A stretch of 17,358 nucleotides of DNA. Origin: a virus. Positions within the stretch are counted from its first letter, which is position 1; each line of letters begins with the position of its first letter. Location of the stretch: the UHGV virus genome UHGV-0105864. The stretch is one strand, 5' to 3'. Both the position numbers and the translations under genes were made by a program. The notes beneath the pieces are model-generated. The model saw only the letters and a list, made by a program, of their open reading frames with translations. It was not told where the DNA came from and did no database searches. This document shows positions 8,186-9,360 of the stretch, in pieces.

Positions 8186-8226
8186 TCCCGCATTTCGGCG
8201 GGACAATCCCATCAATGTTAAAGAGC
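8186..8226 (-). promoter_or_regulatory. nutL: nutL: boxA (GCTCTTTAA, complement of 8218-8226) and boxB hairpin (UCCCGC-CGAAAU-GCGGGA, 8186-8203)
   Basis: boxA matches the CGCTCTT(T)A consensus; an identical boxA plus boxB pair recurs downstream of cro; lies about 40-80 nt downstream of the predicted pL start. Confidence 0.65.
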
Positions 8227-8270
8227 CTGCCAATCTGTTCCGTTTGGCTTCCAGCGTCCTGCTGATGGCT

Positions 8271-8346
8271 TAAATTTAAGATCTCTTTAATTAATGGTCA
8301 AGAGCATTTTTGAAGAAAACTTAAATTTTCTTTCGTAACTTAAGTT
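8271..8346 (-). promoter_or_regulatory. pL promoter (-35 TTGACC 8296-8301, 17-bp spacer, -10 TAAATT 8273-8278) with P22-type operator palindromes
   Basis: Promoter hexamers on the - strand; operator-like sites ATTAAAGAGATCTTAAAT (8272-8289), near-palindrome 8315-8330 and palindrome AACTTAAGTT (8337-8346) share the TTAAG half-site with the OR sites. Confidence 0.55.
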
Positions 8347-8369
8347 TGGCTTTGATTTTTAAAGGAAAT

Positions 8370-8393
8370 AAAAAAAAAGGGGCGAATGCCCCC
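8370..8393 (-). terminator. Intrinsic terminator after the repressor gene (GGGGC-AUUC-GCCCC then a run of 9 U) on the - strand
   Basis: Hairpin 8379-8392 next to the stop codon at 8394-8396; A9 run at 8370-8378 gives the U-tract on the - strand. Confidence 0.7.
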
Positions 8394-9044
8394 TTATGGA
8401 AGGTTTGCTAGTTTTGCATCGACAACTACGCCGATGATTTTGCAGTTTCCGTTGATCTCGATCATCGGATATTGTGGGTTAAGTGGTTTTAGAAACTTCC
8501 TGCCTGCATCAATAACTAACTTCTTGAAAGTTGCCTCGTTTTCTCCTTCGAGCTTTGCAACTACCAGTTTCCCGTTACGCGGCTCTACTTCAGGATCGAC
8601 GAGTATTATCATTCCTTCAGGGATACTGAGACCGGCCGGAGCCGTCATTGAGTCTCCCTTCACGTCCAACCAAAACGAATCTTCTGAACAGTCTACGGTT
8701 GTATCGTACCAGTTATCTATTGCACGCTTATGATATGGTTCTACAGCTTCCATCCAGCATCCTGCGCTCACCCAGCTAATCAGAGGGTATGACCCTCTTG
8801 GATCATGCCTACTGTGATAGGCAATGTTTGAAAGACTTTCCTCTCCTTTCATCAGATAGTCAGGGGAACACTTCAACGCATTAGCCAGGGCGAGAAGATT
8901 CTCTCCATTTGGCTCTGTCTCAGAGCGTTCCCACTGAGATATGGCAACATTAGACACGCCGACCATCTTTCCAAGTGCGGCCTGCCTGATCTTGAGTTCT
9001 TTTCTCCGAGCGCGAATGCGCTCTCCCATCAATTGAGTTTTCAT
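8394..9044 (-). CDS. c2: Prophage repressor, P22 C2-type (helix-turn-helix N-domain plus S24 LexA-like autopeptidase C-domain)
   Basis: 216-aa ORF; QAALGKMVGVSNVAISQWERSETEPNGENL helix-turn-helix and C-terminal GDSM...KLVVAK serine/lysine dyad region; near-identical to P22 C2 as recalled. Confidence 0.9.
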   Translation of the reverse strand: MKTQLMGERIRARRKELKIRQAALGKMVGVSNVAISQWERSETEPNGENLLALANALKCSPDYLMKGEESLSNIAYHSRHDPRGSYPLISWVSAGCWMEAVEPYHKRAIDNWYDTTVDCSEDSFWLDVKGDSMTAPAGLSIPEGMIILVDPEVEPRNGKLVVAKLEGENEATFKKLVIDAGRKFLKPLNPQYPMIEINGNCKIIGVVVDAKLANLP

Positions 9045-9110
9045 AGTTAAGACATCTTAAATAAACTTGACTTAAGATTCCTTTAGTGGATAATTTAAGT
9101 GTTCTTTAAT
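9045..9110. promoter_or_regulatory. OR operator region and pR/pRM: three 18-bp TTAAG-type operators (9045-9062, 9070-9087, 9093-9110) and pR (-35 TTGACT 9067-9072, -10 GATAAT 9089-9094)
   Basis: Three imperfect palindromes fitting AnTnAAG-N4-CTTnAnT; promoter hexamers with 16-bp spacing 30 bp upstream of cro. Confidence 0.7.
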
Positions 9111-9124
9111 TTCGGAGCGAGTCT

Positions 9125-9310
9125 ATGTACAAGAAAGATGTTATCGACCACTTCGGAACCCAGCGTGCTGTAGCTAAAGCGTTAGGCATTAGCGACGCAG
9201 CAGTCTCTCAGTGGAAGGAAGTCATCCCAGAGAAAGACGCCTATCGACTGGAAGTCGTTACAGCTGGCGCCCTGAAGTATCAAGAAAGCGCTTACCGCAA
9301 AGCGGCATAA
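9125..9310 (+). CDS. cro: Cro repressor (P22-type)
   Basis: 61-aa ORF MYKKDVIDHFGTQRAVAKALGISDAAVSQWKEVIPEKDAYRLE... matching P22 Cro; divergent from the repressor across the operator region. Confidence 0.9.
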   Translation: MYKKDVIDHFGTQRAVAKALGISDAAVSQWKEVIPEKDAYRLEVVTAGALKYQESAYRKAA

Positions 9311-9317
9311 GCAAATT

Positions 9318-9360
9318 GCTCTTTAACAGTCATGGTCCTCATTCCCGCCGAAATGCGGGA
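9318..9360 (+). promoter_or_regulatory. nutR: nutR: boxA (GCTCTTTAA 9318-9326) and boxB hairpin (TCCCGC-CGAAAT-GCGGGA 9343-9360)
   Basis: Same boxA and boxB sequences as the nutL candidate, here on the + strand between cro and c1. Confidence 0.65.

What the first reader, a model, noticed from the sequence alone, without database searches (positions are those of the whole stretch)
8186..9360. Matched nutL and nutR sites with a non-lambda boxB, flanking a P22-type immunity region
The same boxA (GCTCTTTAA) and the same 18-nt boxB hairpin (TCCCGC-CGAAAT-GCGGGA) occur downstream of pL (- strand, 8186-8226) and downstream of cro (+ strand, 9318-9360). The repressor, cro, c1 and the three operators are P22-like, whereas N has a lambda-like C-terminus and its own arginine-rich motif. 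The boxB differs from the lambda and P22 boxB sequences as I recall them, implying a distinct N/boxB specificity pairing.
Basis: partly seen in the sequence, partly recalled or inferred. Interest (0 to 1): 0.45.

Follow-up and report, generated by a model that had tools for sequence, protein, structure and literature searches.

The report
Known HK620-type nut sites; N frameshifted
The two matching hairpins are the ordinary left and right N-utilisation (nut) sites of a common HK620/CUS-3-type prophage, already annotated in GenBank in 2001, and in this copy the N gene that should use them is broken by a one-base deletion.

Summary
boxA GCTCTTTAA followed by the hairpin TCCCGC-CGAAAT-GCGGGA lies downstream of pL (8186-8226, minus strand) and again just after cro (9318-9360). 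None of 200 shuffles gave a match.

These are the nutL and nutR sites of the N family found in phages HK620, CUS-3, HK630, HK140 and mEp213. The HK620 GenBank record already annotates the same sequences as putative nutL and nutR. About 490 of 5426 complete E. coli genomes carry this N type.

Three lines of comparison support function:
- The same N and boxB pair brackets at least five different immunity cassettes.
- Diverged relatives keep the loop Y-GNAA-U while four stem pairs change in a compensatory way.
- The N arginine-rich motif type and the boxB type co-occur in 111 of 111 loci.

- cII is lambda cII (98% identical), not P22 c1.
- The body of N is phage-21 type.
- N in this window has a 1-nt deletion at 7779/7778 and stops after 39 codons, so the trans factor is probably dead here.

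That frameshift allele is rare and absent from isolated phages, yet it occurs in several different mosaic contexts. I could not explain this. Binding specificity was not tested.

The parts
8273..8301 (-). pL promoter (-35 TTGACC, -10 TAAATT), overlapping OL1
   Evidence: Consensus scan, 9 of 12 matches. The position corresponds to the annotated pL/OL of phage 21 and P22.
8273..8357 (.). OL1-OL3 operators (approximately 8273-8292, 8310-8328, 8337-8357)
   Evidence: Repeat families D1, I4 and I11. The sequence is near-identical to the annotated OL region of P22 and phage 21. The coordinates are transferred by alignment and are approximate.
8218..8226 (-). nutL boxA GCTCTTTAA
   Evidence: Identical to boxA-L of phage 21 and lies inside the annotated HK620 nutL.
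8186..8203 (-). nutL boxB hairpin UCCCGC-CGAAAU-GCGGGA
   Evidence: Invariant in 107 loci. Compensatory stem changes occur in diverged loci.
8105..8184 (-). N-leader hairpins (CCAAAG..CTTTGG at 8164-8184; GGTGACG..CGTCACC at 8105-8163)
   Evidence: Read directly from the sequence. Conserved in HK620, Cronobacter and other loci. The function is inferred by analogy with the lambda N leader, which I recall from memory.
7885..8092 (-). 208-nt insertion in the N leader relative to HK620 (function unknown)
   Evidence: blastn against HK620 leaves a gap here. Junctions were read. CUS-3 shares the insertion.
7751..7870 (-). N, 5' part: ATG at 7870, arginine-rich motif (NARNRRRARRQAQREQ), a 1-nt deletion between 7779 and 7778, and a premature stop at 7753-7751 (39 codons)
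   Evidence: Translation. Alignment to intact CUS-3 N. The exact 39-aa product is on record on at least 26 contigs.
7572..7778 (-). N, 3' part, now in the -1 frame (phage-21-type NusA and RNA-polymerase-binding regions, natural stop at 7574-7572)
   Evidence: 96.8% DNA identity to phage 21. The last 37 residues match lambda N in PDB 6GOV.
7283..7304 (-). Terminator-like hairpin plus T-run after ral (candidate tL1 that N would read through)
   Evidence: Scan. ral is identified by Pfam PF11058, E = 2e-48. A terminator is annotated at the equivalent place in phage 21.
8394..9044 (-). c2/cI-type repressor, 216 aa
   Evidence: 92.1% identical to P22 c2. Pfam HTH_3 plus Peptidase_S24.
9045..9111 (.). 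OR3-OR1 operators with pR (-35 at 9067-9072, -10 at 9089-9094)
   Evidence: The sequence is near-identical to the OR regions of P22 and phage 21.
9125..9310 (+). cro, 61 aa
   Evidence: 95% identical to P22 cro and 97% to phage 21 cro. Pfam P22_Cro, E = 9e-28.
9318..9326 (+). nutR boxA GCTCTTTAA
   Evidence: Lies inside a 104-nt stretch that is 100% identical to the HK620 nutR region.
9343..9360 (+). nutR boxB hairpin (extendable to AUUCCCGC-CGAAAU-GCGGGAAU, 9341-9362)
   Evidence: Annotated as putative nutR in HK620.
9368..9400 (+). tR1-like hairpin GCGCAT-AAGTTG-ATGCGC followed by a U-rich tail
   Evidence: Read directly from the sequence. HK620 annotates tR1 at the equivalent place. It did not pass the strict terminator scan.
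9419..9712 (+). cII, lambda type
   Evidence: 97.9% identical to lambda cII. Pfam Phage_CII, E = 5e-48.

Best explanation
These are the nutL and nutR sites of a lambdoid N antitermination system of the HK620/CUS-3 type.

Inferred mechanism, by homology with lambda, P22 and phage 21:
1. Transcripts from pL and pR carry boxA, which binds NusB and S10, and then the boxB hairpin.
2. The N-terminal arginine-rich motif of the cognate N (..DDNARNRRRARRQAQREQ..) binds the boxB loop.
3. The body of N, which is phage-21 type, binds NusA and RNA polymerase.
4. The modified polymerase reads through tR1 and the terminators to the left of N.

The boxB is a 6-bp G+C-rich stem with a hexaloop, Y-GNAA-U. It reads as a true GNRA tetraloop (GAAA, or GUAA in one relative) flanked by two unpaired pyrimidines. 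The phage 21 boxB has the same architecture (C-UAAC-C). The P22 nutR boxB (CCGC-C-GACAA-C-GCGG) is close in sequence, apart from its looped-out C.

Shown here: the sites, their position and orientation, their conservation, the compensatory stem changes, and the strict co-occurrence with one N motif type.
Inferred: RNA binding, dependence on Nus factors, and separation of specificity from other N proteins.

In this window the cis sites are intact, but N has a 1-nt deletion after the arginine-rich motif. The most likely reading is that this prophage cannot make a working N, so the nut sites are intact targets without their factor.

The confidence of 0.88 is for the identification as nut sites of this N family. 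I put about 0.65 on a distinct specificity and about 0.8 on N being non-functional in this copy.
For: - Site geometry and chance.
- Fold.
- Identity to the annotated putative nutL and nutR of HK620.
- Conservation across cassettes: in 74 of 80 IMG/VR loci with N at least 96% identical to CUS-3 N, the same boxB flanks the immunity region on both sides. The interior falls into at least 5 length classes (1.17, 1.71, 1.76, 2.3 and 2.86 kb) that share only about 130 nt with this window. The spacer between boxA and boxB varies while boxB does not.
- Diverged relatives: N proteins 70-79% identical (Cronobacter, Salmonella, metagenomes) keep the arginine-rich motif almost unchanged.
- Compensatory changes: their boxBs change 4 of 8 stem pairs on both sides, and 11 cells do so against 4.9 +/- 2.2 in shuffles (0 of 500 shuffles reach it). 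The loop stays Y-G-N-A-A-U.
- RNA on the sense strand: U-G pairs in Cronobacter work only on that strand.
- Co-occurrence: motif type and boxB type match in 111 of 111 loci of this type and 5 of 5 phage-21-type loci, with no hybrids.
- N C-terminus matches lambda N residues 75-110 in the antitermination complex structure 6GOV.
- Phage 21 boxB hexaloop as a GNRA mimic closed by a C-C pair: bioRxiv 10.1101/2025.07.03.663028.
- Frameshift. All 26 isolated phages that cover the site are in frame. In IMG/VR the frameshift allele is on 1 contig and the intact allele on at least 120.
Against: - No binding or antitermination assay exists for this pair in anything I could find. HK620 labels the sites only 'putative'.
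- Co-occurrence of nutL boxB with the N motif is partly trivial, because they lie within about 100-320 nt in one mosaic block. nutR is the independent witness.
- The alignment used for the pair counts has only 11 distinct sequences, and related sequences can beat shuffles without any structure.
- The motif resembles those of lambda and P22 (A-x-x-R-R-x-x-R-R) and the loop contains GAAA, so cross-recognition is not excluded.
- For the view that N is dead here: the frameshift allele occurs in several mosaic contexts, as three haplotypes, with the downstream frame always open. A simple private loss-of-function mutation would not be expected to look like this.
Confidence: 0.88

Rival explanations
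1. The pair is not a separate specificity class. This N motif and boxB cross-react with P22 or lambda N and boxB, so the difference in sequence has no functional meaning.
For: The motif core A-[KR]-x-R-R-x-x-R-R is shared with lambda, P22 and phage 21, and N starts MTVVITY, like P22 gp24 MTVITY. The boxB core CCGC-C-GA.AA-Y-GCGG is close to P22 nutR. From memory: Cocozaki et al. 2008, whose title is quoted, report overlapping boxB requirements for P22 and lambda.
Against: There are no hybrid loci among 116 classified. The loop is held constant while stems drift. The His and Glu of the P22 RRHERR motif, which contact the looped-out C, are replaced here, and that C is absent from this boxB.
Confidence: 0.25
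2. N is still made, or has been repurposed, in the frameshift allele. Either a -1 ribosomal shift in the roughly 43-nt overlap (only candidate CGC GAA AAA UUG) gives a 99-aa N with linker DSDWRE in place of EQRLAR, or the 39-aa motif-only peptide has a role of its own, such as competing for boxB.
For: The exact 39-aa ORF is recorded in 60 blocks of the collection. It sits in at least 4 mosaic contexts and with two different N C-terminal modules, each fully open in the -1 frame. It occurs as three haplotypes, each equal to a common intact haplotype minus one base.
Against: - There is no canonical X XXY YYZ slippery heptamer, and the A5 run is also common in intact alleles such as HK620.
- The allele is absent from all 26 isolated phages that cover the site and is on 1 contig against at least 120 in IMG/VR.
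- In 5 of 9 other carriers the cognate boxB sites are missing or cut in half, and one of them has its own lambda-type N upstream. This is the pattern of a passenger remnant.
- N is transcribed from pL, which is repressed in a lysogen.
Confidence: 0.06
3. The hairpins are not nut sites. They are chance palindromes, protein-binding DNA palindromes or terminators.
For: A perfect palindrome could in principle bind a dimeric protein. z-scores for the wider 66-nt contexts are unremarkable (-0.4 and -1.1).
Against: 0 of 200 shuffles match. The spacing and order after boxA are fixed at both sites. No U-run follows either hairpin. G-U pairs work only on the sense strand. The position is the canonical one, after pL and after cro. 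The sites are annotated as nut in HK620.
Confidence: 0.02

Closest known systems
Coliphage HK620 N with its putative nutL and nutR (GenBank AF335538, 2001). The same module is in CUS-3, HK630, HK140, mEp213, mEpX2, N7, HF4s and ECP1.
   Same: nutL boxA, spacer and boxB are identical. The nutR-to-tR1 stretch is 100% identical over 104 nt. The N arginine-rich motif is identical.
   Different: HK620 N has a P22-type C-terminus and a different, 434/L-like immunity region. The HK620 N leader lacks the 208-nt insertion. HK620 N is in frame, and N in this window is not.
Phage 21 N and boxB (solved complex PDB 1NYB)
   Same: N is 99 aa in both, residues about 33-99 are nearly identical, and the motif core A13..R16..A19 R20 R21 is in the same register. 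boxA and its flanks are the same. boxB is also a 6-7-bp stem with a hexaloop made of a 4-nt GNRA-like core between two pyrimidines.
   Different: The loop is CUAACC rather than CGAAAU, the stem sequences are unrelated, and the motif is GTAKSRYKARRAELIAERR. The two types never mix in one locus.
P22 gp24 and boxB (PDB 1A4T)
   Same: The N-terminus is MTV(V)ITY and the motif has the form NA[KR]xRR.xRR. P22 nutR, ACCGC-C-GACAA-C-GCGGU, resembles CCCGC-C-GAAA-U-GCGGG. The immunity genes between the nut sites are P22-like.
   Different: P22 has the pentaloop GACAA with a looped-out C that contacts His and Arg. Here neither the C nor the His is present. The C-terminal two thirds of gp24 are unrelated to N in this window.
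Lambda N and nut (complex structure PDB 6GOV)
   Same: The inferred overall mechanism, the order boxA then boxB after pL and after cro, and the last 37 residues of N (E = 9e-4). The adjacent cII is lambda cII.
   Different: Lambda boxB is GCCCU-GAARA-AGGGC, a 5-bp stem with a pentaloop. The lambda motif has Trp18 and this one has no aromatic residue. The middle of N is not alignable.

Membership tests
Lambdoid N/nut processive antitermination | The nut site consists of boxA (CGCTCTTTA-like) followed within about 8-20 nt by a boxB hairpin on the transcribed strand | tested here: met
   GCTCTTTAA plus a 14-nt (nutL) or 16-nt (nutR) spacer plus the hairpin. There are two matches against 0 in 200 shuffles.
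Lambdoid N/nut processive antitermination | One site lies downstream of pL before N and one lies downstream of cro before tR1 and cII | tested here: met
   Promoter scan and ORF map. The layout matches the annotated phage 21, P22, lambda and HK620 records.
Lambdoid N/nut processive antitermination | boxB is an RNA stem-loop with a GNRA-like, purine-rich loop that is maintained in evolution | tested here: met
   Fold of -9.7 kcal/mol. Four stem pairs show changes on both sides, and the loop Y-G-N-A-A-U is conserved.
Lambdoid N/nut processive antitermination | [quoted passage not shown] | tested here: met
   The ORF starts at 7870 with MTVVITYLADDNARNRRRARRQAQREQ. Pfam N_peptide scores only 18 bits against a cut-off of 27.9.
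Lambdoid N/nut processive antitermination | The N ORF is intact and joins the motif to the NusA- and RNA-polymerase-binding regions | tested here: not met
   A 1-nt deletion at 7779/7778 gives a stop at 7753-7751. The C-terminal part is in the -1 frame. The feature is met in CUS-3, HK620 and about 99% of relatives.
Lambdoid N/nut processive antitermination | The C-terminal region is homologous to the RNA-polymerase-binding end of lambda N | tested here: met
   The repaired (CUS-3) N, residues 63-99, matches 6GOV chain N residues 75-110 with E = 9e-4.
Lambdoid N/nut processive antitermination | The N motif binds its own boxB specifically | not testable with these tools
   Only co-occurrence is available: 111 of 111 and 5 of 5 loci, with no hybrids.
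Lambdoid N/nut processive antitermination | Terminators downstream of the nut sites are read through in an N- and Nus-dependent way | tested here: inconclusive
   A terminator-like site lies after ral at 7304-7283, and a hairpin with a U-rich tail lies at 9368-9400. Readthrough itself cannot be tested here.
P22-type immunity (immC) region | c2 repressor, cro and three operators on each side are of P22 type | tested here: met
   Repressor 92.1% and cro 95.1% identical to P22. The OR and OL sequences are near-identical. The region is equally close to phage 21.
P22-type immunity (immC) region | A P22 c1 gene follows nutR | tested here: not met
   The gene is 97.9% identical to lambda cII and 48.5% to P22 c1.

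The most novel reading that the evidence does not exclude
There are two novel readings that the evidence does not exclude.

1. The HK620/CUS-3 N motif and its C-GNRA-U hexaloop boxB could be a fourth natural peptide-RNA pair, orthogonal to those of lambda, P22 and phage 21. It would be one in which a true GNRA tetraloop closed by a pyrimidine-pyrimidine mismatch is read by a motif without His or Trp.

2. The recurrent CAAGACAG frameshift allele of N might not be a dead gene. It could be expressed by recoding, or it could make a motif-only peptide that competes for boxB.

The probability given is for reading 2, which is the more surprising. Reading 1 alone I would put near 0.5, with interest about 0.3.
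Probability: 0.06. Interest if true: 0.6.

Novelty: already known. Interest (0 to 1): 0.15.

Why it matters
It matters little as a discovery. nut sites flanking an immunity region are the standard lambdoid layout, and these exact sequences have been annotated since 2001.

The analysis gives two modest gains:
- It provides comparative evidence that this widespread but biochemically uncharacterised N and boxB pair is real and under selection. The evidence is cassette-independent retention of both sites, compensatory stem changes, and strict co-occurrence of motif type with loop type. The pair relates to phage 21 in architecture and to P22 nutR in sequence. It could be a further candidate for orthogonal peptide-RNA tethering tools.
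- It shows that this particular prophage probably lacks a working N. That bears on whether the prophage can be induced.

Tried and rejected
- Rfam gathering search of the whole window: only two tRNAs and no nut family.
- tblastn of the 44-aa N-terminus against phages: no match, probably because of low-complexity masking. Replaced by a DNA search.
- GTDB genome scan with an N alignment: only 7 loci. A second IMG/VR scan with a diverged N added three new diverged loci, one with this N motif and two of phage-21 type. Diverged loci came mainly from exact-protein look-ups.
- Literature searches for this boxB, and for HK620 or CUS-3 nut sites, found no experimental work in the held library. The HK620 (J Mol Biol 2001) and CUS-3 (J Bacteriol 2007) papers were not retrieved.
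- I first took the frameshift for a private mutation or a sequencing error. I rejected that because the exact 39-aa product is on at least 26 contigs from different projects.
- I considered that the G-to-A change giving the A5 run was specific to the frameshift allele, as a possible slippery site. I rejected that because HK620 and most intact alleles also have A5.
- The third boxA-like 9-mer at 17127 was rejected as chance.
- The 65-aa proteins clustered with the 39-aa ORF are unrelated. They are spurious ORFs translated across pL and nutL.
- A regular expression of mine for nutR was wrong and returned false negatives. It was corrected.
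Full report
**Observation.** The window has GCTCTTTAA at 9318-9326 (+) and 8218-8226 (-). It has TCCCGCCGAAATGCGGGA at 9343-9360 (+) and 8186-8203 (-). With one flanking base this is a 19-nt perfect inverted repeat. The joint pattern boxA-N{10,20}-boxB occurs twice in the window and never in 200 shuffles. The 18-mer folds into a 6-bp stem with a 6-nt loop (-9.7 kcal/mol, z = -2.9). Both copies lie in the sense orientation downstream of promoter-like sites. pL is at 8301-8273 on the minus strand and pR is at 9067-9094 on the plus strand. 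nutR begins 8 nt after the cro stop codon.

**What the region is.** Window 7560-9420 is 99.2% identical to the P22-like coliphage CUS-3 and 87% identical to the immunity region of phage 21. It also matches about 260 complete E. coli genomes over its full length.

The mosaic map is as follows:
- 7277-7773 is phage 21 (96.8%): ral and the 3' two thirds of N.
- 7774-8091 is not phage 21. It holds the N arginine-rich motif and the leader.
- 8210-9331 is the P22/phage-21-type immunity region, running from boxA-L to boxA-R.
- 9318-9421 is 100% identical to HK620: nutR and tR1.
- 9402-9708 is lambda (96.7%).

The repressor is 92% identical to P22 c2 and cro is 95% identical to P22 cro. The operators are almost the same as those of P22 and phage 21. 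The gene after nutR is lambda cII (97.9%), not P22 c1 (48.5%).

**Already annotated.** The HK620 GenBank record (AF335538) carries features 'nutL; putative N-utilization leftward' and 'nutR; putative N-utilization rightward'. Their sequences are GGCTCTTTAACATTGATGGGATTGTCCCGCCGAAATGCGGGA and CGCTCTTTAACAGTCATGGTCCTCATTCCCGCCGAAATGCGGGAAT. These are the window's sites. The HK620 N has the same arginine-rich N-terminus. The module is also in HK630, HK140, mEp213, mEpX2, N7, HF4s, ECP1, IME10, Gally and some Stx phages. The motif-to-body junction of this N is covered at 80% or more in 493 of 5426 complete E. coli genomes.

**The N protein.** Intact CUS-3 N is 99 aa: MTVVITYLADDNARNRRRARRQAQREQAMQEQRLARK, followed by a body almost identical to phage 21 N. 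The motif core (A13, R16, A19, R20, R21) is in the same register as in phage 21. The first residues, MTVVITY, resemble P22 gp24 MTVITY. The last 37 residues match lambda N residues 75-110 in the antitermination complex structure 6GOV (E = 9e-4). Among 120 listed homologues with this body there are two main N-terminal classes, the phage 21 type and this type. The same N-terminus is also joined to other C-termini: the P22 type in HK620, and an ..NPLGNKIHAVQ.. type. In Cronobacter, Salmonella and metagenome N proteins that are only 70-79% identical overall, the motif is almost invariant.

**Comparative evidence that the hairpins function with this N.**
- Of 80 IMG/VR loci with N at least 96% identical, 74 have the exact boxB on both sides. 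The distance between the two sites falls into at least five classes, and the interiors share only about 130 nt with this window. So the N and nut pair is retained around different immunity cassettes.
- The spacer between boxA and boxB varies, whereas boxB does not.
- In diverged loci the stems differ. Examples are UUCCGC/GCGGAA, UCUCCGC/GCGGAGA, AUCUCCAC/GUGGAGAU and GUCCCGC/GCGGGGC. The loop stays CGAAAU, with one UGAAAU and one CGUAAU.
- On 11 distinct sequences, 4 of 8 pairs change on both sides, and 88.6% of cells are paired against 33-64% for slid registers. No shuffle reaches the observed covariation score. The sample is small and the sequences are related, so this is supportive rather than conclusive. 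The U-G pairs work only on the transcribed strand, which argues for RNA.
- Motif type and boxB type co-occur without exception: 111 loci of this type, 5 of phage 21 type, and one lambda type. Because nutL boxB is close to the motif-coding sequence, nutR across the immunity cassette is the more independent witness.

**Structure inference.** The loop reads Y-G-N-A-A-U, that is, a GNRA tetraloop sequence (GAAA or GUAA) between two pyrimidines that cannot form a standard pair. The phage 21 boxB hexaloop CUAACC is described as a GNRA-like UMAC fold closed by a non-canonical C-C pair (PDB 1NYB; bioRxiv 10.1101/2025.07.03.663028). The architecture here is therefore the same, with a true GNRA core. 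The P22 nutR boxB, ACCGC-C-GACAA-C-GCGGU, is also close. Removing its looped-out C gives GAAA. The same paper reports that this C contacts His and Arg of the P22 peptide, and the His is absent from the present motif. These are inferences from sequence.

**The frameshift.** Relative to CUS-3, HK620 and nearly all relatives, the window reads CAAGACAG instead of CAAGA[A/G]CAG, with the base missing between 7779 and 7778. The N frame therefore ends at 7753-7751 after 39 codons. The phage-21-type body continues in the -1 frame to the normal stop at 7574-7572. The motif alone cannot tether NusA and RNA polymerase, so the simplest reading is a non-functional N.

The allele is not a sequencing accident. 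The exact 39-aa product is on record on at least 26 contigs and in 60 blocks of the collection. It is rare:
- No complete E. coli genome matches the 91-nt query without a gap.
- None of the 26 isolated phages that cover the site has it.
- One IMG/VR contig has it, against at least 120 with the intact form.

It nevertheless occurs with different repressors and with both phage-21-type and P22-type C-terminal modules, always open in the -1 frame. It occurs as three haplotypes, each equal to a common intact haplotype minus one base. In five of the nine other carriers the cognate boxB sites are absent or cut in half, and one has its own lambda-type N upstream. There the allele looks like a passenger remnant. 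No canonical slippery heptamer lies in the 43-nt overlap, and the A5 run is also common in intact alleles. I rate recoding, or a separate role for the peptide, at about 6%. I leave the multi-context distribution as unexplained.

**Verdict.** The finding is real and is correctly read as matched nut sites with a boxB that differs from those of lambda, P22 and phage 21, paired with a particular N motif. It is an ordinary and already annotated feature of a common phage module.

Noticed in passing
window 7751-7870 (-), deletion between 7779 and 7778: N is interrupted by a 1-nt deletion and stops after 39 codons. The body of N continues in the -1 frame to 7572.
   Followed up: yes
L125-L133 (N at 3001-3120 in L125-L132): The same frameshift allele occurs in at least 4 mosaic contexts, with two different N C-terminal modules, and as three haplotypes that each equal a common intact haplotype minus one base. 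It is rare and absent from isolated phages. Whether it had one origin and spread by recombination, or arose by recurrent deletion, is unresolved.
   Followed up: partly
window 7885-8092 (-): There is a 208-nt insertion in the N leader relative to HK620, shared with CUS-3 and HK140. It contains the hairpin CCCCG-TCTAATTGG-CGGGG followed by A9, and tiny ORFs. Its function is unknown.
   Followed up: no
window 8105-8184 (-): Two conserved hairpins lie between boxB and N: CCAAAG..CTTTGG, and a long GGTGACG..CGTCACC stem. They are also present in HK620 and Cronobacter loci. They resemble the lambda N-leader/RNase III region, which I recall from memory.
   Followed up: no
window 9419-9712 (+); joints near 9331 and 9402: cII is lambda cII (97.9%). 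The nutR boxB and tR1 segment is a separate mosaic piece of about 70-100 nt between P22/phage-21-type cro-boxA and lambda cII.
   Followed up: yes
L123 3938-3971 (P22 nutR): The P22 nutR boxB, ACCGC-C-GACAA-C-GCGGU, is close to this boxB, CCCGC-C-GAAA-U-GCGGG. It also has a pyrimidine-pyrimidine mismatch closing the loop.
   Followed up: partly
proteins P0122-P0135 (for example HK630 gp43): The 65-aa 'hypothetical proteins' annotated in E. coli, Salmonella, Cronobacter and HK630 are translations across pL, boxA and boxB of nutL (..GRLFNIDGIVPPKCGNQRVVGFG). They are probably spurious gene calls. They show that this nutL is also present in Salmonella and Cronobacter.
   Followed up: partly
L126 about 2620-2650; L127 about 2800-2830: Half-boxB scars (..AATGCGGGAAC) lie next to foreign sequence, so recombination joints fall inside boxB.
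   Followed up: no
L088 3744-3790 and L089 3747-3790: Other N relatives (Intestinirhabdus, Pluralibacter) have further boxB types (CCUACCU-GAUGC-AGGUAGG and CCCUGUG-AAUA-CACAGG) and different N-termini. This N family has more motif and boxB pairs than the three classical ones.
   Followed up: no
window 16127-16282 (+): tRNA-Asn (GTT) and tRNA-Thr (TGT) genes lie between the late-regulator region and the lysis genes.
   Followed up: no
window 17127-17135 (-): A third GCTCTTTAA lies antisense inside ORF 16832-17308 with no hairpin after it. It is taken as chance.
   Followed up: yes
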